This document shows, one piece after another, positions 18,557-32,469 of a DNA stretch of 64,000 nucleotides (within the stretch, counting starts at the first letter, position 1; each line of letters opens with the position of its first letter). Under the pieces are notes generated by a model, which saw only the letters and a list, made by a program, of their open reading frames with translations, was not told the origin of the DNA and made no database searches. Source of the DNA: Candidatus Woesearchaeota archaeon (GTDB lineage Archaea; Nanobdellota; Nanobdellia; Woesearchaeales; GW2011-AR4); contig JACOUX010000006.1 in NCBI GenBank assembly GCA_016177615.1, forward strand, positions 30,131-94,130. Reading direction: 5' to 3'. The translations under genes and the position numbers were made by a program.

Positions 18557-21500
18557 CTACCCAAACCATCTCCCTAACCCTTCCTGCTTTTCCTTGTCCC
18601 TTCCGAAGACTCCTTCCACTCTATCTTTAGTCAAAAGCAAAGTCTGCTTCAGGTAAGGGGGCAGGTTGTACTTGTCGGACAGGGAAATCGCAGGCTCGAG
18701 ATATTTTATTATTGCCCCCTCTGTAACTGTGAATATGAGCTTGCTTCCGCATTCCAGGCATTTCCCGGCCAAAGGGGGCCTCCTGTATTTTTCAGTGCAC
18801 TTGCTGCACCTGAACTGCTGTTGGGAGAATTTCCTTAAGTTTCCTCTTATGTCCCTCAGCAAATGCTTTTCAATGACCAGCCTTGCAACATCGGCTGCGT
18901 CAACCGCCCTTATCTTGTCTGCAAGGTCCATCTGCCCCTTTAGCTTGTCTTCCATTGAAGGGATTGTCTTGTATGAAGAGCACTTTACTCCCATGTTTAT
19001 GCTGCTGACGGGATGGGTGTAGTAAATTGCAGACGCCTCTTTTGAGCCTAGAATGTTTGCAATCCTTTGTATCTTGACATTGTGCGGCATCTCATAATTC
19101 AAAGCCGCTTCATAAAATTCCAAAGGGTATCTTTTGACAACATCCACATCGAATGCCATGTCATCAACTTCTGTCGGAACCAAAATGGATGTTAAAACTA
19201 ATGGCGCGTCCTGTGTCGCACCTCTTGTGTCTGGAAGAAACTGCTTTGAGAAATTTAGCAATACGTCCATTAGTAATGTTACTGAAGCTTCGTCGCCATC
19301 ACAATCGCGCCTAGTAGCAGCATGAAGCAGCGGATGGGCATAAAATGCCTGTGTTTTTGAAAACCCGATTATTCTTCCTATTATTCCAGCTGATGTGTGC
19401 GGAGCAAGCGCGACTACCAATTCTCCAATAAGGTCTTTTTCGGATTTAAGGTTGTAGAATTTGCCAAGCTTGTACAAAGACCCCAGCAGCTCATCTATAA
19501 ACAGGCTGACTTCGTAAAGAACCTTGTCTGCGCCTTTCTCAGGAGCATCCTCGCATTTGGGTAGTATTATATCCTGAGGCATCAACTCAATGATTTGTTC
19601 CTCATCCTCCAATTGGTTGGAGTTTATATCCTCAGTATACCCAAGCTGCCTGAGTTTCTCTATAGAGGTCCCTATCTCTCTTGGCTTGAAATGTGTTATC
19701 GGCAGTTGCGTCATATCATACCTTGTTGTGCCGTCTTTATTGACTGGTATGCCATATTTTGCCCTCAGTATACCTTTAGCCAAATGCTCGGGAATATGGT
19801 TTTTATTTGATGTCCCTCTAACCCCTTTTACCAGATCTGGATAATGGCTCATGCCTAAGTTAGCCAATATTCTGTTGAAGTAGTGGTTAATGTCAATTTT
19901 TTGCAGTTTATAGGTTGTTGTTTTTCCGTGAATGCATTTTTCATTTCTTATCGTGCCGCAAACCTTGCACAGGTGCATCTGTACGGACTTGGAATTGCAT
20001 TTCTCGCAGACAGGCATGATTGTTGGCTCCTTGCAGCTTTCGCAGAAATAAATCGGAAATTCTGCTGTTACGCCCCCAATTCCGAGGGCGCTTTGAAAAG
20101 ACCTTAGCTTGCCCCCTTCTTTGCCTACTGGAAAGAGCATATGAGGATCACCTTCCATTTTCCTGACTTTTCCTTTTTCGGGCCTGCCCATTCTTGCACC
20201 TATGAATGTGCCTGATTTGTCTCTTATCTTAATCTCAGATGACATATTTATAATTTCAATTGTGTTTTCGTTTATAACGCTTGCATATTTTTCATAAAAT
20301 TCTTCATTATCCAGGCTTAGAAGGGCATAGAATACCTCTGCTTCATTTTTCTCCAAAATAGTGAATTCATTATTCACATAGATATGCGGTGCACCTATAG
20401 ATTCCAGTACTTTCTTGGCTTTCTCGTTTTTTGGAAGAATTATTTTGCTTAGCTTGCTGTTTTCAAACTCCATCTTTGCATGCTTAAACCATGACAAAAT
20501 CTCAAGCAGCGATTCTCTTGAAATAATTTTCCAGTGGTAGGTATGAAATGGGTGGAGGGGGACACTTAAAATTCTGCTTAACGCTGCCGACTCGTATCCG
20601 TTGGGCTTTGAAATAAAATAATCCTGAATGAACGACTTTAGGTTTTCAACTGGAATTCCGCTCAGTTCAGATAATTTGCCAAAGTCATTGTTGAATAACT
20701 CCTTTATCGCCTGCTCTGCTTCAAGCGCCCACCATTCCTCACAATAGCCTGCAGGCACCAACTGATGCGCCCTGTTAAAAAAATCACCGTAATTTATCAA
20801 TATATCTCCCAAAAATATTATTTCGCTGATTTGGCTGGCTGACTGCTTTGCGATTTGTTCGCTGTGCACATATATAACACTCCCATCATTTAATTTGACT
20901 ATTGGACCCTCTAAGCAATCACATACTGTTATCGCTGTTGCTTTCCCGGGCCTTTCCACTTTCAGCTGGGTGCCTATCCCAAGGTATTTGTTTAGCACAT
21001 ACATAGTCGCAGGATGTATTGATGTAGCAGAATATCCTGACGTTCTGCATCTGCCGTACCTTAATCTGAACCCTCCAGTTGCAGAAGGGTGCCCCAAAAC
21101 CGGGCGTCCTGCAACCAGATCCTGAATGTATGTGTAAATCGGGGTTATTCCTTTCTTTGATGCCTTTTCTTTCGCTTTTATTTCCTTTTGCAGATGCACA
21201 AATTCCTGCAGAAAAGACCAGTGGCCAAGCTCAAACTCGTCTCCCCATTTTTTAAGCTGCGACCATACTTTGGGTGCCTTTTGCGCAATGCACTCCCCCA
21301 AAACAAGCGCGGGCCCGCTTCTTATCCTATTTGTAGCAATCCTATCTAGGTCTTTGTAGTTAGATACCTCAATTTCTTCTGAAGGGTCTCCATCTATTTG
21401 GACAGGGAGGTTGCTTACCAAAAAGGATATTTCTTTTTCGCTTGGCAGGTATTGAAGGTTTGTAACCCTTTCGTGATAATCATACAGTTCTGTTACCATC

Positions 21501-22060
21501 CTCCTGATTTCCTGCTCTGACGGGTCATAAGCTTCAAACCCCATTTTTTTCCTGATATAGTCCGCTATAACTGCGCTGACTGCCCCAGCTGTCCCGCCAG
21601 CGCTTCGTATTGGGCCGGAGTACATCAGCGAGAAATAATCTTTGCCGTCCCTGCGCTTGTTGATTTTTAGTTCCACAAACCCCTCAAGCGGCGATGCCAC
21701 AACACCCAATGTCAAATATGCGAGACCAATCCTTATGCCAGTCTCCATAGCAATCTTCTGTGAATCGAATTTGCAGAATCTTTCCTGAGACACTTCCAGC
21801 GAAATTGAAAGTGCAACCCTCCAGTCCGATTTTCCGTAAATGGCTTCCAATTCTTTGATTCTTTCCGGAATCCCACTATTCATGAGTTGGGGCACAACAA
21901 CACTTACAATACCTTCCACTCTTTCTGCCATATTTTTTGCGAGAGGTGCGCATACTATCGGTTCAGGATCATACCCTTTGGACCTTGCTTCAGAGGCTAT
22001 GGCGTAGCATTTCTCAATTTCTTCCGCCATCTTCTTGCTGGATTTTTCGTTGGTAATCAT
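18557..22060 (-). CDS. polC: DNA polymerase II (PolD) large subunit DP2
   Basis: 1167 aa; DP2-typical Cys clusters (CESCKEPTIMPVCEKCNSK...CKVCG; C-terminal CSKCTEKYRRPPLAGKCLECGS); global similarity to archaeal DP2. Confidence 0.9.
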   Translation of the reverse strand: MITNEKSSKKMAEEIEKCYAIASEARSKGYDPEPIVCAPLAKNMAERVEGIVSVVVPQLMNSGIPERIKELEAIYGKSDWRVALSISLEVSQERFCKFDSQKIAMETGIRIGLAYLTLGVVASPLEGFVELKINKRRDGKDYFSLMYSGPIRSAGGTAGAVSAVIADYIRKKMGFEAYDPSEQEIRRMVTELYDYHERVTNLQYLPSEKEISFLVSNLPVQIDGDPSEEIEVSNYKDLDRIATNRIRSGPALVLGECIAQKAPKVWSQLKKWGDEFELGHWSFLQEFVHLQKEIKAKEKASKKGITPIYTYIQDLVAGRPVLGHPSATGGFRLRYGRCRTSGYSATSIHPATMYVLNKYLGIGTQLKVERPGKATAITVCDCLEGPIVKLNDGSVIYVHSEQIAKQSASQISEIIFLGDILINYGDFFNRAHQLVPAGYCEEWWALEAEQAIKELFNNDFGKLSELSGIPVENLKSFIQDYFISKPNGYESAALSRILSVPLHPFHTYHWKIISRESLLEILSWFKHAKMEFENSKLSKIILPKNEKAKKVLESIGAPHIYVNNEFTILEKNEAEVFYALLSLDNEEFYEKYASVINENTIEIINMSSEIKIRDKSGTFIGARMGRPEKGKVRKMEGDPHMLFPVGKEGGKLRSFQSALGIGGVTAEFPIYFCESCKEPTIMPVCEKCNSKSVQMHLCKVCGTIRNEKCIHGKTTTYKLQKIDINHYFNRILANLGMSHYPDLVKGVRGTSNKNHIPEHLAKGILRAKYGIPVNKDGTTRYDMTQLPITHFKPREIGTSIEKLRQLGYTEDINSNQLEDEEQIIELMPQDIILPKCEDAPEKGADKVLYEVSLFIDELLGSLYKLGKFYNLKSEKDLIGELVVALAPHTSAGIIGRIIGFSKTQAFYAHPLLHAATRRDCDGDEASVTLLMDVLLNFSKQFLPDTRGATQDAPLVLTSILVPTEVDDMAFDVDVVKRYPLEFYEAALNYEMPHNVKIQRIANILGSKEASAIYYTHPVSSINMGVKCSSYKTIPSMEDKLKGQMDLADKIRAVDAADVARLVIEKHLLRDIRGNLRKFSQQQFRCSKCTEKYRRPPLAGKCLECGSKLIFTVTEGAIIKYLEPAISLSDKYNLPPYLKQTLLLTKDRVEGVFGRDKEKQEGLGRWFG

Positions 22061-22066
22061 TCTGGT

Positions 22067-23551
22067 TTATTGCCCAAACTTAAGGATTTTTATGTCTCTT
22101 GTGCCAAGGTTCACTATTGGAACTCTGCTCGGCTCTGGATTGTGGCCAACCTTTTCCTGAAAAGTAGTTTTTCCTTGCCAACAGCTGCCGCAGATTAGTG
22201 TAGTGTTCCTGTAATTGGAAGTTGATGATTTGTGTATATGGCCGCTGAGAAAAAAGTCAGGGACTTTCTCTATCACTAAATTGTCTTTTTTTGTGTCTGG
22301 GATGTATAAAGATGATAAGTGAGAAGGGGCCAAATGCCTTCTTTTTAGAAGGAACTTCATGATGAGGTCAGGCCTGTTATAACCACCTAGACTTCTCAAT
22401 GAGTCTACATTTGCCACAAAATAATCAAAAGAATAGCCATGATACATCAATACATCAAAGCCCGAAAAGTTACTTGTTGAGTTTATGTTTATCATTGAGG
22501 GGTTTGATACCATTATAACATTGCTCATTTCGTGCAGTGGCTTTGCAAAGTCTTTGGATAATTGTGGCTGCGGCTCTGCTATTCTCAGAGCATCATGGTT
22601 TCCAGGGCAGATAATCAATGGTATTTGGTGGGGGATCTGCCTTAAAAGACCTGCGCATTCTTCGTATTGCTCATAAATGTCTTTTGTAATGAGCTCTTTC
22701 TCTTGACCGGGGTACACCCCGCACCCATCAACTAAGTCTCCTGCAATAAAGATGTATTGGATTTTATTCGATATGCTTCTTTGCTGTTCGTTTCCCATCT
22801 TCCCGTTTATCCATTTCAAAAACCTTTCAAAATCTTCAGGCAAAAATTTTGAAGATCCAACGTGCAAGTCTGAGAGGAATATAGCATAAGATTCCTCCTC
22901 GTGCTTCTTGAGCTCCTTGCTCGCTGGTATGTCTGGCCACAGTATGTTATTGGCAAAAATAAAATTCTCTATGTTTACACCAACCACTCCTACAACCTCG
23001 TCCAGCACAATGTCTTTGGCCTCGTTGAAAAGCGCCGGCTTGTTTTTGTTTACTAGGACCTTTCTTTGACCTGTTGGGTCTTCCAAAAGCAAGAGGAGAT
23101 TTCCATTTTTTGTTGTTTGCTTGTAGCTGACCATTCCAATCACAGAAAGGGGCTCTTTTTCCCTTTTGTTTGGAATTTTCCCTATTGAAACCGTATTTTG
23201 CATCTCTTGCCTTTGCTTCAATATTTTTTCGATCGCTTTGTACCTGTTGTTGAAGTGGTCCACAAAATCCTGGATGTCCCTTTTCTTTGGCTCTTCTTTG
23301 TAAGAATAAACAATTTTTATTTCCCCTTGCTTTGGGGCTTCTGCCATTTCTGGCGATTTTGTGCATGTTAATTCTGTTAAACTGAAGTCCGCTACCGGAT
23401 CGTTAAGCTGTTTCGTCCTGATAACCTCAAAAATTCTGGATATCTTGTCATAGTCATTAATTCCCCTCAAAAAGTCAGGGCTTATGAGAATTCCTTTCTT
23501 TAAGCACGCTTCTATTACTTCCCGCTTTTTGTCTATAAGTTCCTGCTGCAT
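22067..23551 (-). CDS. polB: DNA polymerase II (PolD) small subunit DP1 (calcineurin-like phosphoesterase)
   Basis: Phosphoesterase motifs (IFLSDLHVGS, FIAGDLVDG, GNHD, GHIH). Start trimmed to the Met that avoids overlap with cdc6 (track ORF extends to 23647). Confidence 0.85.
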   Translation of the reverse strand: MQQELIDKKREVIEACLKKGILISPDFLRGINDYDKISRIFEVIRTKQLNDPVADFSLTELTCTKSPEMAEAPKQGEIKIVYSYKEEPKKRDIQDFVDHFNNRYKAIEKILKQRQEMQNTVSIGKIPNKREKEPLSVIGMVSYKQTTKNGNLLLLLEDPTGQRKVLVNKNKPALFNEAKDIVLDEVVGVVGVNIENFIFANNILWPDIPASKELKKHEEESYAIFLSDLHVGSSKFLPEDFERFLKWINGKMGNEQQRSISNKIQYIFIAGDLVDGCGVYPGQEKELITKDIYEQYEECAGLLRQIPHQIPLIICPGNHDALRIAEPQPQLSKDFAKPLHEMSNVIMVSNPSMININSTSNFSGFDVLMYHGYSFDYFVANVDSLRSLGGYNRPDLIMKFLLKRRHLAPSHLSSLYIPDTKKDNLVIEKVPDFFLSGHIHKSSTSNYRNTTLICGSCWQGKTTFQEKVGHNPEPSRVPIVNLGTRDIKILKFGQ

Positions 23552-23558
23552 GTCCCAA

Positions 23559-24764
23559 TTAAATATGAATGCTGTCTTCAAGAATGCTCTTGGTTTTTTG
23601 GAGTGTTGCTTCTGGGATTTCCAGGGATATCTCTCTTGTTCTGCCATACCTCCCTTTGGAAATCACTTTGGCATTTACTACCCCCATCATATCAAACTCG
23701 GATATAATATCTGAAACCCTTCTTTGTGTCAATGTGCTTATGTTTATCTTGCTGCACAGGGATTTGTAAACCCCATATACCTCCCCGGTGAACAGCGATT
23801 CCCTGCCGCGCTGCAAGGAGATTATGGAATAAAGCACAACCTGATATTGTTTTGGCTGAGTTGTTGCTATATCCATTATCCTGTCTCGATCTATCTTTTC
23901 CTCTGCTTCATCTATGTCTTCCAGAGTTATTGTTTTTGTGTTTTTCCTGTCTGCAACTTCCCCTGCAACCCTTAGAAGCTCCATGGCGCGCCTTGCATCC
24001 CCGTGGTCGCGAGCTGCGTAAGCCGCGCATTTCTCAATTACCCCCTGCCCCAAAACCCCTTTATTAAATGCGAATTCCGCTCTTTGCTTTAAAATGGATT
24101 GAATTTGGAGCGCGTTGTATGGAGGAAAAACAATTTCTTCTTCTGATAATGATGATCTGACCCTAGGATCGAGCCCATCAACAAACATTATGTCATTAGA
24201 TATCCCAATCAAAGAGATTTGTGATGTTGTGTCTTCTTCACTAATCCGTGTTAGGTTGTAAAGCGCATTGTCTCCCATCTTGTTAATGAGTTGGTCTATC
24301 TCATCGAGTATTATCACGTAGTTTTGATTTTGCTTATTTAATGCCTTAAAGAATGATCTGTAAACTTCTTCTGTAGGCAAACCTGTTGGGGGGATTTCCT
24401 TGCCGAGTTCCCTCGCAAGCTGCGCTATGAGCCTGTATTCTGTATCGGCGCTTCTCTTTAGCTTGCAATTGACATAAATTACCTTCAAAGGCAACTTCTC
24501 TTTTTCTGCTACGCTAGCCAGTTTTTGAGTGGTGTGTTTTACCGTAAGGGTTTTTCCTGTGCCTGTTTTGCCATAGACAAAGGTGTTTGAGGTTTTGTCC
24601 CCTTTTAAAGATGGTGCAAGGACATTGGCTACTTGTTTTATCTGGATTTCCCTATGTAAGACCGTTTCTGGAATATAGGATGCTTGAAGTGCCTTTTTAT
24701 CAGAAAAAACGCTCTTTTTCCTTAAAAAATCTTCAAAGAAGGTTTCTGTGTCCTTTTCTACCAT
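23559..24764 (-). CDS. cdc6: Orc1/Cdc6 replication initiator
   Basis: AAA+ Walker A GKTGTGKT, Walker B ILDEID, C-terminal wH; lies directly next to the ORB-containing AT-rich region. Confidence 0.9.
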   Translation of the reverse strand: MVEKDTETFFEDFLRKKSVFSDKKALQASYIPETVLHREIQIKQVANVLAPSLKGDKTSNTFVYGKTGTGKTLTVKHTTQKLASVAEKEKLPLKVIYVNCKLKRSADTEYRLIAQLARELGKEIPPTGLPTEEVYRSFFKALNKQNQNYVIILDEIDQLINKMGDNALYNLTRISEEDTTSQISLIGISNDIMFVDGLDPRVRSSLSEEEIVFPPYNALQIQSILKQRAEFAFNKGVLGQGVIEKCAAYAARDHGDARRAMELLRVAGEVADRKNTKTITLEDIDEAEEKIDRDRIMDIATTQPKQYQVVLYSIISLQRGRESLFTGEVYGVYKSLCSKINISTLTQRRVSDIISEFDMMGVVNAKVISKGRYGRTREISLEIPEATLQKTKSILEDSIHI

Positions 24765-27526: not shown

Positions 27527-27769
27527 ATGAAAGACCAAAGATCAGGTGCACCGGTTTTTGTAAAGGTAGATGAGTACAAAGAAATTCTGGACGTGCTGGA
27601 AATGGTAAAATCAAAAATAACAGAAATAAGGGAAACCCTCGGGAGCATAAATTCGCTGAGAAACGAGGAAGATGCGGAGCTGGCTATGTGGAACAACGCG
27701 ATCAGCGACATTGAAAAAAAAGTGGACCGCATTGACAAGCTGATGTTTGAGCCGGAGCACACATGGTGA
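27527..27769 (+). CDS. Hypothetical protein, paralog 2 (domain only)
   Basis: VFVKVDEYKEILDVLEMVKSKITEIRETLGSINSLRNEE... aligns residue-for-residue with paralog 1. Confidence 0.5.
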   Translation: MKDQRSGAPVFVKVDEYKEILDVLEMVKSKITEIRETLGSINSLRNEEDAELAMWNNAISDIEKKVDRIDKLMFEPEHTW

Positions 27770-28166
27770 GAAATTGAAAGAGCAAACAAACGACCTTTTC
27801 TTTGTTGAAATAAGGCAGCACAGCGAAATCAGGAAGGATATTCTTGAAGCCCTGAAGCAGATGCTGGAAGTGCTGCAGAGATTTGAAAAGTTTAGGCACA
27901 TCAGGCACTCAAAGTCAGAAAATATCCAGAAGCTTAAGGCAATGATTAAGGACGCGAATAAAGTGCTTGGAACTCTTAAGGGCAAGCTGCCGCAGACAAA
28001 TTTAAGGGTATCATCCGTAAGGGAGGACAAGCCAGCCCCAAAAAAAATTCACAAAAAAAACAAACCAGCTCCGCAGAAAAAAGAGCCAAAGCGGGAAATG
28101 ACAGAAATGGAAAGGCTCGAGGCAGAGCTAAATGCAATAGAAAGCAAGCTGAAAAGTTTGGACTAA
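27747..28166 (+). CDS. Hypothetical protein, paralog 3 (domain plus Lys-rich C-terminal tail)
   Basis: FFVEIRQHSEIRKDILEALKQMLEVLQRFEKF... shares the domain; KKIHKKNKPAPQKKEPK tail followed by a coiled coil. Confidence 0.45.
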   Translation: MSRSTHGEKLKEQTNDLFFVEIRQHSEIRKDILEALKQMLEVLQRFEKFRHIRHSKSENIQKLKAMIKDANKVLGTLKGKLPQTNLRVSSVREDKPAPKKIHKKNKPAPQKKEPKREMTEMERLEAELNAIESKLKSLD

Positions 28167-28230
28167 TTCTGTAAGTGCCTAATCAGTTTAAGAAAATTAA
28201 AAGTGGAGATTATTCCCCTATGATAATAAA

Positions 28231-28372
28231 GTGGACAGCTTTTCTGTTTTCCCGTGCGGAGCACAGTACACACAGAAACGGAGGCTTGCTTAACTTCCGT
28301 GAACCCGCTAAAATGCGGACGCACTTTACTTTCGGGATGGGAACGGGTGAACCAAGCCCCTATGGCCGTCCA
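28231..28372 (-). rRNA. rrf: 5S ribosomal RNA (stand-alone gene), apparently with a ~29-nt hairpin insertion in loop C
   Basis: Minus strand reads UUGGACGGCCAUAGGGGCUUGGUUCACCCGUUCCCAUCCCGAA[AGUAAAGUGCGUCCGCAUUUUAGCGGGUU]CACGGAAGUUAAGCAAGCCUCCGUUUCUG...GUACUGUGCUCCGCACGGGAAAACAGAAAAGCUGUCCAC. This aligns with archaeal 5S (e.g. GGCGGCCAUAGCGGUGGGGUUACUCCCGUACCCAUCCCGAACACGGAAGAUAAGCCCACC...). Helix I (GGACGGCC/GGCUGUCC) and helix II (GGGGCUUG/CAAGCCUC) are complementary. GC-rich relative to surrounding intergenic DNA. Confidence 0.75.
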
Positions 28373-28476
28373 AGCTAAAAGGGAAGAAAACCCGGTTTAA
28401 AAATGTTGTGGAATTTTTTTGTTTTGCCTGAAAAGATTTTTAAAGCGAAGCTTATAATTTGCTCTTGGTGATTTAA

Positions 28477-28719
28477 ATGAGCACAGTTCCAGCGGTTCCA
28501 TTGGAGAGTAAAGTAATTGAGGTTGTAGTAACTGGTGACATAAGATATGATATTCAGAGGGCTATAGCCATGATGGGCTCCAGTTTCCCAGGCGCGCATT
28601 TGTCAGGCAAAGCATTGGCAAAAGCCCTGGATGAAAAGCTGCCAGAAGGAAAGTACATAGCCCATGCAACAGGGAATATTGTAGAGTATATTGAGCCTAA
28701 ACCAGCCAATTACAATTAA
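28477..28719 (+). CDS. Hypothetical small protein (80 aa)
   Basis: ORF only; no recognised motif. Confidence 0.35.
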   Translation: MSTVPAVPLESKVIEVVVTGDIRYDIQRAIAMMGSSFPGAHLSGKALAKALDEKLPEGKYIAHATGNIVEYIEPKPANYN

Positions 28720-28946
28720 AGAGCGGGAAAGAGCTATAAAAGCATTTTAATCTACTTCAAACAGTACAGATTCTAATGACTTATTTCATCCCTTATTACA
28801 TGAATTAAGATTATGGAAAAGTTCGCCATAACGGTGTTATATTCACTTTTTTTATCGCCTATAAGGTTGCTATCGCACACCGGAAATTTAGATTTGTTAT
28901 CTTCGCTTAAGATTGGTATCTTAAACAAACTTTTTTATTATACTAT

Positions 28947-28989
28947 GAATCGGGGGCTAACGATTAATAAAACGATAACGGTTCGGGGG
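28947..28989 (+). repeat. Left terminal inverted repeat (bipartite: 12-nt outer box + 10-nt inner box)
   Basis: gaatcgggggctaacgattaataaaacgataacggttcggggg. Confidence 0.7.
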
Positions 28990-29386
28990 TGAAAAATAGC
29001 TGCTGCTGAGGAATGGTGCAAGGCAAGGAAGATGAAATTTAGGATAATCTCAAGATACTAAAGCTGCTTCTGTTTTACTAATTTCTATTTTAAATTCTAG
29101 TCCGCATTTTTTGCATTTGTATGATCCTAAATCTTCAAATCTCTTTGATATAGGTTCAAATTTATGTTTATGATTTTCCACTACTACCACCTCTTTTGCT
29201 ATTCGCTTTTTATTTCAATGAGGTATTTTATAGGTATTAGTAGTTGGGGTTTATATAGTTCACGCAGAGATGTCCAGTGATACTCTAATATATAGATTAA
29301 AATAAATGAACTACAACTAAGAAATTAAGAAAAGAAAACTTTATATATGTGATATACTAGATTTTCTAAATAAATGGGTTTTTAGT

Positions 29387-30094
29387 ATGAATAAAATTTC
29401 TGAATTAGGAATAGAGAAAGTTACCCCTGATGAACTTATAGGCCCATTGAATGACATTGAGAAGAAGTTTGCTCCACCTTACCTTTTTCTTAAAGGAAAT
29501 CGTAAACTTATAGATAATCATCCTAGAGTCTCAATTATTGGTACTAGGCATCCTAGTGAGGGCGGAATAAATAACACTAGTAAATTAACGAAGTTTCTTC
29601 TTAAGAATGAAGTGGTTATTGTAAGTGGTCTTGCCCTAGGTATAGATACCGTGGCACATAAAACTGCGATTGAAAATGGTGGTAGAACCATAGCTGTGTT
29701 AGGTACGCCTCTTGATAGGTATTACCCAAAACAGAATAGTGATTTGCAGGATGAAATTGCGAGAGACAATTTAGTAATCTCACAATTTTCCTTAGGGTCA
29801 GCCATACAAAGGAAGAACTTCCCTCTACGTAATAGAACAATGGCATTGCTTTCTCATGTTTCAATTATTGTTGAAGCAGGGGAGGGTAGTGGAACAATTC
29901 ACCAAGGATGGGAAGCACTTCGTTTGGGTCGACCATTATTTCTTATTGAAGATATAATTAAGAATAAGAATCTAAAATGGCCACATAAATTAATTGGATA
30001 TGGTGCTAAAATTCTTCCAATTTCTCAAGCCAAATTTGTGCTTGAATCTTTACCAGTCCCCATGCTAGAGGCGGGGAACTATGCTACTTTCTGA
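29387..30094 (+). CDS. DprA/Smf-like Rossmann-fold (SLOG superfamily) protein; Rossmann core only, no SAM or wH domains
   Basis: RVSIIGTRHPSEGG...VVIVSGLALGIDTVAHKTAIENGGRTIAVLGTPLDRYYPKQN...NFPLRNRTMALLSHVSIIVEAGEGSGT matches the DprA Rossmann motifs (GxRxxS, SGxAxGID..AH, TIAVLG.G.D..YP, RNR, VVEA...SG). Confidence 0.8.
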   Translation: MNKISELGIEKVTPDELIGPLNDIEKKFAPPYLFLKGNRKLIDNHPRVSIIGTRHPSEGGINNTSKLTKFLLKNEVVIVSGLALGIDTVAHKTAIENGGRTIAVLGTPLDRYYPKQNSDLQDEIARDNLVISQFSLGSAIQRKNFPLRNRTMALLSHVSIIVEAGEGSGTIHQGWEALRLGRPLFLIEDIIKNKNLKWPHKLIGYGAKILPISQAKFVLESLPVPMLEAGNYATF

Positions 30095-30725
30095 ATTAGA
30101 ATTTGGTTCTTATCTAACTTATAGTCCCCGAGGAAAATCTGATCTTGCTAAGCGGTCTAAGAATATTATGATTTATCTTAAATCTGAAGGAAATTTTGGT
30201 AACCCACCCAAGTTTATGTCACAACTTGTTGCAGAAAGGATAAAGGAAAGTATTGACAAAATGCCATTCAATCATTTTTTTAGTCCAAATGTTTCATTAG
30301 TTCCTATACCCAAAAGTTCTCTGATGCAACCAAACACACTTTGGGTTTCTGAGAAAATTGCAAAGGCTCTATCAAAACAAGCATTTGGAGATTTTTATCC
30401 TTGTTTAAAAAGAATAAAACCATTACAAAAAGCAGCTTATTCAAATCCACCAAATAGGCCTAAAGCTATTGATCACTATAACAGTATAGAATGTCAACCA
30501 CTTGTTCATAGACCGAAAGAGATAGTTCTTATTGATGACATTATTACGCGTGGTTCCACTCTACTTGGATGTGCAAGTAGATTAAAGGAAATTTTTTCTG
30601 ATGTACCGATTCGGGCATTTGCAGTCATTAGAACGATGAGTGATCCTAACGACTTTACAAATATAGAAGACCCATGTATTGGAACGATAACTCTCTCTAA
30701 CAATGATACATTTAGAAAACCCTAA
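30081..30725 (+). CDS. Phosphoribosyltransferase (PRTase) domain protein, ComF-like without zinc finger
   Basis: PRPP-binding motif EIVLIDDIITRGSTL; overlaps the dprA-like gene by 14 nt in an operon. Confidence 0.7.
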   Translation: MLLSELEFGSYLTYSPRGKSDLAKRSKNIMIYLKSEGNFGNPPKFMSQLVAERIKESIDKMPFNHFFSPNVSLVPIPKSSLMQPNTLWVSEKIAKALSKQAFGDFYPCLKRIKPLQKAAYSNPPNRPKAIDHYNSIECQPLVHRPKEIVLIDDIITRGSTLLGCASRLKEIFSDVPIRAFAVIRTMSDPNDFTNIEDPCIGTITLSNNDTFRKP

Positions 30726-30776
30726 TATAAAATAAGTGAATAAAAGCTAATAATAATTCAATTAAGCTATTCTTCG

Positions 30777-30817
30777 CCCCCGAACCCCCAGGATATACTA
30801 ATTAAAGCCCCCGATTC
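30777..30817 (-). repeat. Right terminal inverted repeat
   Basis: plus strand cccccgaacccccaggatatactaattaaagcccccgattc; reverse complement gaatcgggggctttaattagtatatcctgggggttcggggg. Confidence 0.7.
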
Positions 30818-30932
30818 TTAATAAAAAAGTACTATAACACTAAATTTTCGGCGGTAAAAAACTCGATGTTCGCTACGCTCACTCGCCTATCGGTCGCCTA
30901 ACACTCGCAAGGCAAACTTTTTCTCGCTTCGC

Positions 30933-32090
30933 TCAAAAAAGTCTCGAGTGCTTCAAAATTTTTTCAGCTCTGAATTTTGCGGGTTGCCTCAAAATTCGAG
31001 GAAAAAATTTCTCGCCTCGAGCCAAATGTCGCCGGCCCTTCAGCTTTTCCTTTATCTCTTTCCAGGAAAACTTTTTGCTGGCCTTGCTGAGCTCATCAAG
31101 CACGTCCTTGATTAATCCATAATTATGGTAAATCAATTCGCCTTTCTGCCTTAGCTCGTGCCCTTCCTTTCCAAGCTCCTCTATTGTTTGCTTCTGCTGC
31201 CCAATTATTCTCTGCAGCGACTTTATCTGTTTGTCCTGCTCAGTTTCTTTTATTTCCCTGAACTGGGAATAAAAATGCCGCACAGCATCATTGAAGGTTT
31301 CAAATTTTGTTTTTTTGCTGTTTTTGTAGAAATTCAAGCCAAATGGAATGAAATCTATTAAGCTGTTGTCCGCGTCCAATACAGCATAAGGCTCTGTCTT
31401 GTTGTTGAGCAAGCTGTTAATGGAATCCTGCAATTGCTGCGCTTGCTTTTCATCAATGTTCTTGGGATTAAGATTTTTATCAACATTGGACATCAAGCAG
31501 AGCTCTTCAGAATACAACCCTCCCAGGCCAAGCTCCGTTGCCAGCGCAACCACAACACTTTCCTTTTTTGAATTTTTCATCAGCTCAGCAAGCTCATTAT
31601 TTTTCAAATCAAACATGTTAAAATCCATGATAGGATACGTGTACTTTAATTTTGGCTTGATAGACCTTTCCCTGAACTCATGATGCTCAAGTGCGTTTAT
31701 TATCACGTTATGGCTGTCGCAAAGGATTGCATTGCCCTTTCCGAAGAATTCTATGTAAAGATATTTATTTTCATCCTTGATATTAAACCCTAATTTAATT
31801 ATCCTTTCCGGCTTCAGCTGGCTTATCTCGCTTAAGAAATGCCCGTCCAAATGCTTTCTCAAAAGCATCCCGAAGCCAAGAGTCTCCCCATAATCTTCTT
31901 TGGTTTCTGCAGCGAATATGGACTGCCCGACACATATCCTCAGCAGCTTTTTGCCCAAATTCGCCTTGTGCAGGCTGAACATCAGGACAGTTTTCTCTGG
32001 CTGGTATATTTTGTCTATTCTTGAATCTTTAAGAGCTTCAAGCTCCATGACCAAAAAGTGCAGGTCCAATGAAGACAATTGCCTTTTCAT
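30933..32090 (-). CDS. NFACT-N/FbpA-family protein (archaeal RqcH/Tae2 homolog), apparently C-terminally truncated
   Basis: The N-terminus MKRQLSSLDLHFLVMELEALKDSRIDKIYQPEKTVLMFSLH matches NFACT-N, followed by a coiled coil. Length is only ~385 aa, with no NFACT-R or zinc-ribbon domain. The last ~35 codons (GRRHLARGEKFFPRILRQPAKFRAEKILKHSRLF) are encoded by atypical GC-rich repetitive DNA next to the insertion. Confidence 0.55.
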   Translation of the reverse strand: MKRQLSSLDLHFLVMELEALKDSRIDKIYQPEKTVLMFSLHKANLGKKLLRICVGQSIFAAETKEDYGETLGFGMLLRKHLDGHFLSEISQLKPERIIKLGFNIKDENKYLYIEFFGKGNAILCDSHNVIINALEHHEFRERSIKPKLKYTYPIMDFNMFDLKNNELAELMKNSKKESVVVALATELGLGGLYSEELCLMSNVDKNLNPKNIDEKQAQQLQDSINSLLNNKTEPYAVLDADNSLIDFIPFGLNFYKNSKKTKFETFNDAVRHFYSQFREIKETEQDKQIKSLQRIIGQQKQTIEELGKEGHELRQKGELIYHNYGLIKDVLDELSKASKKFSWKEIKEKLKGRRHLARGEKFFPRILRQPAKFRAEKILKHSRLF

Positions 32091-32100
32091 AAAAATTAAA

Positions 32101-32469
32101 CTAACCTCTTTCCACAACAACCAAGTCTCCGTTATTTACCGTTTTGAATATTGCAGAGTTTCCAATAATCTTTCCAAAAACATTAACCTTTGATGCAGCC
32201 CTTATCCCGTCTTCTGTTGATTCCGGGGTTTTTCCGAAGAATATGCAGAAGCAGCTTCCTTCAGGCCAGTAGGCAACATCACCTTTCTCAACAATGTCTG
32301 TTGCATTTTTCTCCTCATCAACCCTTACAGGAATGACAAAATAAATCTCGTCTCCCCACCTGTTTGCAGCCCCGTCAATCGGGAGTGAATTGTAGATGGT
32401 TCTGGCAGTTTGGGTTTCTTCAAGCTCTACTCCAGCCTCGATATCATTTACAAAAATTTTTATTTTCAT
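32101..32469 (-). CDS. Cyclophilin-like-fold protein (DUF369/TM1367-like)
   Basis: Motifs ...LEETQTARTIYNSLPI...WGDEIYFVIPV...GDVAYWPEGSCFCIFFGKTP... resemble the DUF369 family. Confidence 0.45.
   Translation of the reverse strand: MKIKIFVNDIEAGVELEETQTARTIYNSLPIDGAANRWGDEIYFVIPVRVDEEKNATDIVEKGDVAYWPEGSCFCIFFGKTPESTEDGIRAASKVNVFGKIIGNSAIFKTVNNGDLVVVERG

What the first reader, a model, noticed from the sequence alone, without database searches (positions are those of the whole stretch)
28231..28372. Stand-alone 5S rRNA gene carrying a ~29-nt hairpin insertion in loop C
The minus strand aligns to archaeal 5S rRNA in helices I–III and the universally conserved CCCAUCCCGAA / CACGGAAGUUAAGC segments. 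An extra AGUAAAGUGCGUCCGCAUUUUAGCGGGUU sits between them. This extra segment can itself fold as a hairpin (GUG-CG-CCGC / GCGG-G-CAC). Insertions in 5S rRNA are rare (classic case: Halococcus morrhuae) and could mark an expansion segment or a small intron-like element. The track ORF 28175-28378 over this region is spurious.
Basis: seen in the sequence. Interest (0 to 1): 0.6.

Follow-up and report, generated by a model that had tools for sequence, protein, structure and literature searches.

The report
Probable spliced mini-intron in 5S rRNA
A stand-alone 5S ribosomal RNA gene of a tiny DPANN archaeon (Woesearchaeota) is interrupted by 29 bases that have the exact shape archaeal cells use to cut out introns, so this is probably a 5S rRNA intron, for which I found no published report, rather than a permanent extension of the ribosome.

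Summary
Rfam finds one full-length 5S rRNA at 28373..28230 (-), 58.2 bits, with about 29 extra nt in helix III/loop C. It is the only structured RNA in the window, which comes from a Candidatus Woesearchaeota contig.

The insert is most likely a bulge-helix-bulge (BHB) mini-intron, not an expansion segment.
- Exon CCCG pairs with the insert's 3'-terminal CGGG (4 bp), flanked by 3-nt bulges AA|A and UU|C, with an 8-bp inner hairpin.
- Cutting after the second bulge nucleotide gives CCCAUCCCGAA^CACGGAAGUUAAGC, the sequence of an insert-free 115-nt 5S at the same syntenic position in a relative (111/115 identical).
- The geometry recurs in 11/11 distinct insert-bearing 5S genes of three unrelated insert families: Woesearchaeota at this site, Bathyarchaeia at the same site, and Woesearchaeota at a second site.
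- Both helices covary.
- Two relatives with nearly identical 5S genes carry the insert at different sites.

No RNA data exist, so splicing is inferred. The outer helix is weak, making this a relaxed BHB. I found no report of a 5S intron in the searchable literature. I rate it a new variant of a known kind, with confidence about 0.75.

The parts
28230..28373 (-). 5S rRNA gene (144 nt precursor; predicted mature length 115 nt)
   Evidence: RF00001 at 58.2 bits, full model. The MFE is the 5S Y-shape, z = -4.3. The spliced form folds as canonical 5S, and 15 of 39 pairs are compensated across homologues.
28331..28373 (-). Exon 1 (RNA 1-43), ending ...CCCAUCCCGAA
   Evidence: 100% identical to positions 2-43 of the insert-free 5S in L029.
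28302..28330 (-). Predicted BHB mini-intron, 29 nt: AGUAAAGUGCGUCCGCAUUUUAGCGGGUU (RNA 44-72)
   Evidence: This is exactly the gap in the alignment to insert-free L029, L030 and L033. The BHB geometry test passes at these boundaries.
28230..28301 (-). Exon 2 (RNA 73-144), starting CACGGAAGUUAAGC
   Evidence: 95.8% identical to positions 44-115 of the L029 5S.
28333..28336 (-). Central helix H, 5' strand: exon nucleotides CCCG (RNA 38-41)
   Evidence: Pairs with CGGG at 28304-28307. H is 4/4 paired in 11/11 insert-bearing sequences. The first pair is C-G, U-G or U-A across site-1 sequences.
28330..28332 (-). Bulge B1: A A | A (RNA 42-44); predicted 5' splice site after A43 (window 28331|28330)
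   Evidence: Read from the sequence. The bulge is 3 nt in every homologue. The cut-after-second-nucleotide rule was checked on a canonical tRNA-Thr intron in L018.
28309..28328 (-). Inner hairpin h': UAAAGUGC / GCAUUUUA with loop GUCC (RNA 46-65); G45 and G66 are mismatched in this copy
   Evidence: Present in the MFE. 7 of 8 inner pairs show changes on both sides across 9 sequences.
28304..28307 (-). Central helix H, 3' strand: intron nucleotides CGGG (RNA 67-70)
28301..28303 (-). Bulge B2: U U | C (RNA 71-73); predicted 3' splice site after U72 (window 28302|28301)
   Evidence: The homologous bulges AA|C and AG|C in Bathyarchaeia keep the 3-nt size.
28396..28410 (-). Putative archaeal promoter: CACAAC A TTTTTAAA; the TATA-like box (28396-28403) is centred about 27 nt upstream of the 5S 5' end
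   Evidence: AAC.TTTTTAAA is invariant in all 11 aligned Woesearchaeal 5S loci, with or without the insert. The promoter function is inferred.
28221..28230 (-). T-rich tract UUUAUUAUCA at the 3' end (likely terminator)
   Evidence: Read from the sequence. A similar T-rich tail occurs in all homologues. The function is inferred.
28175..28378 (+). Spurious 67-aa ORF antisense to the 5S gene
   Evidence: no Pfam match, and it lies wholly within the rRNA gene.
30933..32120 (-). NFACT_N family gene: syntenic anchor that lies directly upstream of the 5S in relatives
   Evidence: Pfam NFACT_N, E = 1.1e-51. In relatives the 5S follows within roughly 90-470 nt of its stop codon.

Best explanation
The 29 nt at window 28302-28330 (-) are an archaeal bulge-helix-bulge (BHB) mini-intron in a functional, separately transcribed 5S rRNA gene of a Woesearchaeote. 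In the primary transcript the last four loop C nucleotides before GAA (CCCG) pair with the insert's 3'-terminal CGGG to form the 4-bp central helix. A 3-nt bulge (AA|A) leads into an 8-bp intron hairpin, and a second 3-nt bulge (UU|C) lies on the opposite strand next to helix III. The tRNA-splicing endonuclease EndA would cut after the second nucleotide of each bulge. RtcB would then join the exons into a canonical 115-nt 5S rRNA (…CCCAUCCCGAA-CACGGAAGUUAAGC…) and release a 29-nt, probably circular, intron. What is shown here: the gene, the insert boundaries, the conserved and covarying 3-4-3 geometry, the insert-free alleles, and the second insertion site. What is inferred: cleavage, ligation and the enzymes involved.
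For: (1) The BHB geometry sits exactly at boundaries defined by homology. H = CCCG/CGGG, bulges are AAA and UUC, and the inner helix abuts H. The predicted junction equals the sequence of the insert-free 5S found downstream of the same NFACT gene in L029. The spliced window 5S is 111/115 identical to it.
(2) The same test (H 4/4 paired, at least 4 of the first 5 inner pairs) passes in 11/11 distinct insert-bearing 5S genes. The background rate is 0.0014-0.0023 per position pair, and 0.0004-0.004 for shuffled inserts. The 11 fall into three families with unrelated insert sequences: Woesearchaeota site 1 (6 sequences), Bathyarchaeia site 1 (3) and Woesearchaeota site 2 (2).
(3) Covariation supports both helices. 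90.7% of cells are paired, against 33-56% when partners are slid. 8 of 12 pairs change on both sides, and 0/500 shuffles reach the observed score. At site 2 the exon nucleotide that differs between L031 and L035 (CUCG vs CACG) is matched by the intron (CGAG vs CGUG).
(4) The distribution is intron-like. L029, L030 and L033 lack the insert. L010 (site 1 only) and L035 (site 2 only) have nearly identical spliced 5S sequences and promoters, and their NFACT proteins are 79% identical.
(5) The insert interrupts the conserved GAA^C of loop C/helix III and sequesters conserved CCCG. This is unlike described 5S expansion segments, which rarely interrupt conserved motifs. The only archaeal site known is 104.1-105 (PMC7812874).
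(6) The gene looks active. The promoter box is conserved, and the spliced sequences fold as 5S with 15 compensated pairs.
(7) The cut-site rule was verified on a canonical tRNA-Thr intron in L018.
(8) Small hairpin BHB introns under about 50 nt are known in archaeal 16S rRNA (PMC4496867). DPANN EndAs, including those of Woesearchaeota, carry an extra loop associated with disrupted tRNA genes (PMC5829648).
Against: There is no transcript evidence: nothing here shows that the 29 nt are removed. A covarying helical insert is also what a retained expansion segment would show. The outer helix h is weak (U-A, AxC, C-G, C-G) and competes with helix III, so the 3' site sits in a 6x3 internal loop in the MFE. 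This makes the motif a relaxed HBh' type. In the window copy G45 and G66 are mismatched at the start of the inner helix. In L011, L028 and the Bathyarchaeial copies the MFE lengthens H by 1-2 pairs. For L023 and the two site-2 genes the MFE does not contain H at all. A naive BHB scan gives 13-27 hits per precursor, so the motif alone is not rare; the argument rests on its coincidence with the homology-defined boundaries. EndA and RtcB were not looked for in this genome, and the α4 subunit type reported for DPANN lineages is the type classically regarded as strict.
Confidence: 0.75

Rival explanations
1. Retained expansion segment. The 29 nt stay in the mature 5S rRNA as a helical extension of helix III/loop C projecting from the central protuberance, as in Halococcus morrhuae or the loop C expansions of some Clostridia.
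For: The MFE keeps the three-way 5S fold with the insert as a coaxial-looking hairpin. The hairpin covaries. There is precedent for 13-109-nt 5S expansion segments, including bacterial loop C sites 34-37 (PMC7812874). That paper itself says insertions cannot be classed as retained or excised without RNA data.
Against: The insert splits the conserved GAA^C and pairs with conserved CCCG of loop C. Nearby positions 42-43 are reported as blocked by uL5 in bacteria. Exact 3-nt bulges either side of a 4-bp helix recur in three unrelated insert families, which an expansion segment does not require. Insert-free alleles occur in relatives, and alternative insert sites occur in nearly identical 5S genes. 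The second site disrupts the conserved AA bulge and pairs with the 3' strand of helix III.
Confidence: 0.15
2. Excised but not religated. EndA or another RNase removes the insert and the ribosome carries a 5S in two pieces of 43 and 72 nt, by analogy with fragmented bacterial rRNAs after removal of intervening sequences.
For: The same BHB evidence as for the intron. Helices II and III could hold the two pieces together.
Against: In archaea, BHB cleavage products are substrates of the RtcB ligase, and all described BHB introns are spliced (established knowledge; PMC4496867). Nothing here speaks specifically for fragmentation.
Confidence: 0.05
3. Decaying pseudogene or assembly artefact. The insert marks a dead 5S copy or a mis-assembly.
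For: The Rfam score drops from about 78 bits (insert-free L029) to 58 bits here. Some unrelated bacterial hits to the same search pattern do look like internal-duplication artefacts.
Against: The same kind of insert is seen in at least 11 distinct sequences from independent metagenomes and MAGs. The promoter box is invariant and all helices are intact with compensatory changes. This is the only 5S at the conserved syntenic position.
Confidence: 0.03

Closest known systems
Small non-coding BHB introns of archaeal 16S/23S rRNA genes (Thermoproteales, Desulfurococcales; Jay & Inskeep 2015, PMC4496867)
   Same: A short (under about 50 nt) hairpin that keeps a bulge-helix-bulge at the exon-intron junctions. 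It is inserted in highly conserved rRNA sequence and distributed sporadically among relatives. Related loci are associated with LAGLIDADG homing endonuclease genes.
   Different: The host gene is 5S rRNA, for which I found no intron report. The lineages are DPANN (Woesearchaeota) and Bathyarchaeia rather than hyperthermophilic Crenarchaeota. The outer helix is degenerate (relaxed motif).
Non-canonical tRNA introns with relaxed BHB (HBh' / BHL) motifs (Marck & Grosjean 2003, as reviewed in PMC6379350)
   Same: A 4-bp helix with 3-nt bulges, cuts after the second bulge nucleotide, a good inner helix and a poor outer helix. Processing is attributed to EndA variants with extra loops, which DPANN lineages have.
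   Different: The substrate is not a tRNA. The exon side of H is made from universally conserved 5S loop C nucleotides.
5S rRNA expansion segments (Halococcus morrhuae 108 nt at position 104.1-105; bacterial loop C sites 34-37; Stepanov & Fox 2021, PMC7812874)
   Same: An oversized 5S gene with an internally base-paired extra module. The core fold is preserved in silico.
   Different: Those shown experimentally are retained in mature 5S and sit at exposed, non-conserved positions. This insert lies between E. coli-equivalent positions A46 and C47 (my own numbering), inside a conserved motif. It has splice-motif geometry and is polymorphic among relatives with nearly identical 5S genes.
Group I introns in LSU/SSU rRNA genes of Woesearchaeota and other DPANN (Nawrocki et al. 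2018, PMC6125680)
   Same: The same lineages have intron-rich rRNA genes, often with LAGLIDADG genes.
   Different: Those are introns of several hundred nucleotides with a ribozyme core. A 29-nt insert cannot be one, and Rfam gives no intron hit in the window.

Membership tests
5S rRNA (Rfam RF00001) | Covariance-model score at or above the curated gathering threshold over the full model | tested here: met
   58.2 bits against 38, model positions 1-120, E = 1.3e-9.
5S rRNA (Rfam RF00001) | Three-way junction with helices I-V maintained by compensatory change | tested here: met
   The MFE of the precursor and of the spliced form is the Y-shape. The RNAalifold consensus of spliced homologues has 39 pairs, 15 of them with changes on both sides.
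5S rRNA (Rfam RF00001) | Contiguous conserved loop C / helix III motif CCCAUCCCGAACACGGAAGUUAAGC | tested here: not met
   In the gene the motif is split by 29 nt. It is restored only if the insert is removed, as in insert-free L029.
Archaeal BHB intron | 4-bp central helix flanked by two 3-nt bulges on opposite strands at the exon-intron junctions | tested here: met
   CCCG/CGGG with AAA and UUC. The same geometry is present in 11/11 insert-bearing homologues, against a background of about 0.2% per position pair.
Archaeal BHB intron | Cuts after the second nucleotide of each bulge give a functional, canonical exon junction | tested here: met
   The predicted junction CCCGAA^CACGG equals that of insert-free L029, L030 and L033. 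The rule was checked on the tRNA-Thr 37/38 intron in L018.
Archaeal BHB intron | Flanking helices h (exon-exon) and h' (intron-intron) for the strict hBHBh' form | tested here: inconclusive
   h' is good (8 bp, covarying). h is only U-A, AxC, C-G, C-G and competes with helix III, so at best this is the relaxed HBh' form.
Archaeal BHB intron | Helices supported by covariation rather than by sequence conservation alone | tested here: met
   90.7% paired against 33-56% in slid controls; 8/12 pairs change on both sides; 0/500 shuffles reach the score. At site 2, H covaries with the exon.
Archaeal BHB intron | Intron-less alleles of the same gene in relatives | tested here: met
   L029, L030 and L033 have no insert. 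L010 (site 1) and L035 (site 2) have alternative sites in nearly identical genes.
Archaeal BHB intron | Excision by EndA and exon ligation by RtcB in vivo; circular intron | not testable with these tools
   No transcript data are available. The enzymes were not searched for in this genome. For the literature on DPANN EndA see PMC5829648.
rRNA expansion segment (Halococcus-type 5S insertion) | Insert retained in the mature, ribosome-bound rRNA | not testable with these tools
   Needs RNA or ribosome data.
rRNA expansion segment (Halococcus-type 5S insertion) | Rooted at a variable, exposed position without interrupting conserved motifs or core pairings | tested here: not met
   The insert splits the conserved GAA^C and pairs with conserved CCCG. 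The described archaeal site is 104.1-105 only, and such insertions rarely interrupt conserved motifs (PMC7812874).
Group I / group II self-splicing intron | Ribozyme core detectable by covariance model; length of hundreds of nucleotides | tested here: not met
   The insert is 29 nt, and no intron family is matched in the window.

The most novel reading that the evidence does not exclude
5S rRNA genes of at least two archaeal phyla (Woesearchaeota in DPANN, Bathyarchaeia in TACK) host a previously undescribed class of spliced BHB mini-introns at two or more sites in helix III/loop C. One site is physically linked to a LAGLIDADG homing-endonuclease cassette. These would be, to my knowledge, the first introns reported in a 5S rRNA gene, and they would show that 5S is also a target of mobile archaeal introns.
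Probability: 0.65. Interest if true: 0.75.

Novelty: new variant of a known kind. Interest (0 to 1): 0.68.

Why it matters
Archaeal BHB introns are known in tRNA, 16S and 23S rRNA and a few mRNAs. 5S rRNA has been the exception, and oversized archaeal 5S genes have so far been reported only as retained expansion segments in Halobacteria. If these inserts are spliced, four things follow.

1. The substrate range of the tRNA-splicing endonuclease extends to the smallest rRNA.
2. Relaxed BHB processing would be shown to operate in DPANN archaea.
3. There is a practical explanation for weak or missing 5S calls in DPANN and Bathyarchaeial genomes. Insert-bearing genes score 37-58 bits against about 78 for insert-free ones, and one falls below the Rfam threshold.
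4. The site-2 genes, with their adjacent LAGLIDADG gene and duplicated 5S 3' half, offer a compact system for studying how such introns move.

If the insert is instead retained, it would be the first loop C expansion of an archaeal 5S and would alter a conserved protein-binding region of the central protuberance.

Tried and rejected
- Synteny through the PolD/Cdc6 cluster. Contigs of DP2 homologues (L001-L008) have a ribosomal-protein operon where the window has PhoU/PHO4/5S, and they hold no 5S.
- The pattern scans of genome and metagenome contigs returned many irrelevant hits. L009, L013, L016, L017, L019 and L027 are chance matches. L012, L014, L022 and L026 are bacterial 5S genes with partial internal duplications.
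- A naive BHB scanner is not discriminating: it gives 13-27 hits per 160-nt precursor. I replaced it with a test at homology-defined boundaries with background rates.
- A LAGLIDADG gene or a 5S remnant next to the window's 5S: none found by tblastn or blastn. The 139-aa ORF 27747-28166 shows no similarity to the L031 and L035 endonucleases and has no Pfam hit.
- MAFFT could not co-align site-1 and site-2 junction extracts, so covariation was counted on the 9 site-1 sequences only.
- An insert-free Bathyarchaeial 5S was sought through the neighbouring DUF1512 gene. The one look-up left returned a copy identical to L015, insert included.
- Literature searches for any 5S rRNA intron found nothing relevant.

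Full report
**1. What is there**

Rfam's 5S model (RF00001) matches window 28373..28230 on the minus strand from end to end. The score is 58.2 bits against a gathering score of 38, with E = 1.3e-9. It is the only Rfam family in the 64 kb, and ARAGORN finds no tRNA. The gene is therefore stand-alone.

The window is archaeal. Its PolD large subunit is 100% identical to a protein that NCBI labels Candidatus Woesearchaeota, and all its close homologues carry that label or "Nanoarchaeota". PolD small subunit, Cdc6, a PhoU-like protein, PHO4 and DprA lie nearby.

Between CCCAUCCCGAA and CACGGAAGUUAAGC sit 29 nt, AGUAAAGUGCGUCCGCAUUUUAGCGGGUU, at window 28330..28302. The covariance model reports a 30-nt insertion in the loop C region.

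The 67-aa ORF 28175-28378 (+) is antisense to the rRNA gene and has no Pfam match.

**2. Anatomy of the insert**

The minimum-free-energy fold of the 144-nt RNA is the normal 5S Y-shape, z = -4.3 against shuffles. In RNA numbering, position 1 is window 28373.
- C38CCG41 (the end of loop C) pairs with C67GGG70 (the end of the insert).
- An 8-bp hairpin, U46AAAGUGC53 / G58CAUUUUA65, lies inside.

This gives a 4-bp helix flanked by A42 A43 A44 on the 5' strand and U71 U72 C73 on the 3' strand. That is the 3-4-3 bulge-helix-bulge (BHB) layout recognised by the archaeal tRNA-splicing endonuclease (definition in PMC7714728 and PMC6379350).

Cutting after the second nucleotide of each bulge removes exactly the 29 nt and joins …CCCAUCCCGAA to CACGGAAGUUAAGC….

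I checked this cut rule within the data. A tRNA-Thr(UGU) gene on contig L018 has a canonical 37/38 intron with H = CUUG/CAGG and bulges UA|U and AC|A. The rule gives the correct mature anticodon loop.

**3. Relatives with the insert**

One scan each of the genome and metagenome collections, for CCCATYCCG-N(9-39)-CGGAAGTTAAGC, gave two groups of 5S genes with an insert at the same place.

- **Group A** shares the window's 5S core. It comprises the window, L010 (identical to L020 and L025; Ca. Woesearchaeota RIFCSPLOWO2_01_FULL_38_40), L011, L021, L023 and L028, with inserts of 28-31 nt.
- **Group B** has a quite different 5S core and unrelated inserts of 32-35 nt. It comprises L015, L018 and L024, and L037 from another metagenome is identical to L015. 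Its neighbouring DUF1512 gene has best named hits in Candidatus Bathyarchaeia and Thermoproteota.

All are full-length RF00001 matches at 52-67 bits.

In all nine distinct sequences:
- the four exon nucleotides before GAA pair with the last four insert nucleotides before a two-nucleotide tail;
- both bulges are 3 nt (AAA or AAU; UUC, AAC or AGC);
- an inner helix abuts the central helix.

The first H pair is C-G in group A, U-G in L015 and L024, and U-A in L018.

**4. Insert-free alleles and a second site**

In group A relatives the 5S lies just downstream of an NFACT_N gene (window 30933-32120). I fetched contigs of NFACT homologues with these results.
- **No insert.** L029 has a 115-nt 5S at 77.7 bits, L030 a 117-nt 5S at 69.2 bits, and L033 also lacks the insert. 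All read CCCAUC(C/U)CGAACACGG.
- **Boundaries.** The window's exons match the L029 5S as two blocks (2-43 at 100%; 44-115 at 95.8%) separated by exactly 28302-28330. The spliced window sequence is 111/115 identical to L029.
- **Second site.** L031 and L035 carry a 28-nt insert five nucleotides downstream of site 1, inside the conserved AA bulge of helix III: …C(U/A)CGGA | UUGAGC…CG(A/U)GA(U/G) | AGU(C/U)AAGC. The layout is again 3-4-3, with H = CUCG/CGAG in L031 and CACG/CGUG in L035. The bulges are GA|U and AU|A or AG|A, and the inner helix is UGAGC/GCUC(A/G). Cutting restores CGGAAGU(C/U)AAGC.
- **Three-way covariation.** The exon nucleotide that differs between L031 and L035 pairs with the intron in the precursor and with the opposite strand of helix III in the mature fold.
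- **Alternative sites in near-identical genes.** L010 (site 1 only) and L035 (site 2 only) have nearly identical spliced 5S sequences and upstream regions. Their NFACT proteins are 79% identical.

**5. Is this more than chance?**

A naive BHB scan is unspecific, giving 13-27 hits per precursor. I therefore asked a narrower question: at the boundaries fixed by homology, is the geometry present (H 4/4 paired, at least 4 of the first 5 inner pairs)?
- It is present in 11/11 sequences.
- The background rate is 0.23% for all position pairs in the same precursors, 0.14-0.17% across the whole window, and 0.04-0.37% when the insert is shuffled.
- With three unrelated insert families, joint chance occurrence is of order 1e-8 (my multiplication).

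On a gapless extract of the nine site-1 junctions:
- 90.7% of cells are paired, against 33-56% when partners are slid by 1-3 columns;
- 8 of 12 pairs change on both sides;
- 0/500 column shuffles reach the observed covariation score.

The extract was anchored by distance from the boundaries, not fitted to the structure. It contains only nine sequences in two clades.

**6. Is the gene alive?**

All 11 aligned Woesearchaeal loci, with or without the insert, share an invariant AAC.TTTTTAAA box. It ends about 22 nt upstream of the 5S 5' end (window 28396-28403), a position typical for an archaeal TATA box. All also have a T-rich tail.

The spliced sequences fold into canonical 5S with 39 consensus pairs, 15 of which show compensatory changes. 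A pseudogene or an assembly artefact is therefore unlikely.

**7. Interpretation**

The best explanation is a BHB mini-intron removed by EndA and ligated by RtcB. Several points argue against a retained expansion segment.
- The insert splits and base-pairs with universally conserved loop C/helix III nucleotides.
- The bulge sizes are exact and conserved.
- The insert is present or absent among relatives with nearly identical 5S genes.
- It occurs at two sites.

Stepanov & Fox (PMC7812874) catalogued prokaryotic 5S expansion segments from RefSeq.
- The only archaeal site is 104.1-105, in Halobacteria.
- Bacterial loop C inserts are at positions 34-37.
- Positions 42-43 are blocked by uL5.
- Inserts rarely interrupt conserved motifs.
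- The authors state that without RNA data an insertion could equally be excised.

Small hairpin BHB introns under about 50 nt are known in 16S rRNA of Thermoproteales (PMC4496867). Woesearchaeota have intron-rich LSU genes (PMC6125680).

**8. Weaknesses**

- Splicing is inferred; there are no RNA data.
- The outer exon-exon helix is poor (U-A, AxC, C-G, C-G) and competes with helix III. In the MFE the 3' site therefore lies in a 6x3 internal loop, which is a relaxed HBh'/BHL-type motif.
- Efficient cleavage of such relaxed motifs has been shown for the (αβ)2 and ε2 endonucleases. Bathyarchaeia belong to TACK, where the (αβ)2 type predominates.
- Multiple DPANN lineages have α4 enzymes with an extra "L3" loop that correlates with disrupted tRNA genes. 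A Woesearchaeote was among the genomes surveyed. This is suggestive, not proof (PMC5829648).
- In the window copy the first inner position is a GxG mismatch.
- In several sequences the MFE extends H by 1-2 pairs. For L023 and the site-2 genes the MFE does not contain H.
- I did not look for EndA or RtcB in this genome.

**9. Novelty**

Full-text searches for 5S rRNA introns returned nothing relevant. A 2026 preprint on 208 complete Nanobdellota genomes reports a few genomes with no detectable 5S and does not mention 5S introns.

Insert-bearing genes score 37-58 bits, against about 78 bits for insert-free ones. L031 falls below the Rfam gathering score. Such introns could therefore explain some "missing" 5S genes.

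I class the finding as a new variant of a known kind: a BHB intron in a new host gene and new lineages. My confidence in the intron reading is about 0.75.

Noticed in passing
L031:4958-6018 and L035:2651-3724: In both site-2 loci the intact, insert-bearing 5S is followed immediately by a LAGLIDADG_3 ORF on the opposite strand (L031:5103-5783, Pfam E = 4.6e-12; L035:2802-3473). A remnant of the 3' half of a 5S gene follows (L031:5962-6018; L035:3666-3724). This looks like a homing-endonuclease cassette that inserted into the 5S gene and brought its own 5S 3' half. The 28-nt site-2 insert sits at the left junction.
   Followed up: partly
window 28400-30930: About 2.5 kb lies between the NFACT gene and the 5S promoter. 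It holds a DprA-like gene (29387-30094), an ORF with no Pfam hit (30081-30725) and a 74-aa ORF (28375-28599). In relatives (L010/L025, L011, L021, L028, L029, L033) the 5S follows NFACT within roughly 90-870 nt, so this block is lineage-specific.
   Followed up: partly
L011 (CAZUWB010000002.1): This contig is labelled as an uncultured Methanosarcinales MAG. However, it carries a group A Woesearchaeal 5S with the insert and an adjacent NFACT homologue 60-70% identical to the window's, so it is probably mis-binned.
   Followed up: partly
L012:5252-6188, L014:2799-2915, L022, L026: Bacterial 5S genes (Neglecta, Clostridiales and others) contain a tandem partial duplication of the CACCCGUUCCCAUCCCGAACACGG segment, which matched the search pattern. 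These may be assembly artefacts or real internal duplications of the kind Stepanov & Fox discarded.
   Followed up: no
L018:12626-12715: A tRNA-Thr(UGU) gene in the Bathyarchaeial contig has a 14-nt canonical 37/38 BHB intron. ARAGORN reports it as tRNA-??? with a 4-base anticodon. It was used here as an internal control for the cut-site rule.
   Followed up: yes
window 18557-24764: Cdc6/Orc1, PolD small subunit and PolD large subunit lie in one minus-strand cluster, so a replication origin is probably near 24.8-25.0 kb. Several close DP2 homologues (about 1620 aa; for example P0003 and P0005) carry intein/LAGLIDADG Pfam domains that the window's 1167-aa protein lacks.
   Followed up: no
L031:4958-5101; L035:2651-2794: Site-2 insert-bearing 5S genes score only 37.0 and 41.3 bits against RF00001 (gathering 38). 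L031 is not reported in gathering mode. Intron-bearing 5S genes are thus easily missed by standard annotation.
   Followed up: yes
L031:3668-4339; L034:2642-3260; L005:13510-14162: Toxin-antitoxin pairs (PIN/RHH, ParE-like, PIN/MazE) are repeatedly inserted next to the conserved NFACT-5S or PolD blocks in Woesearchaeal contigs.
   Followed up: no
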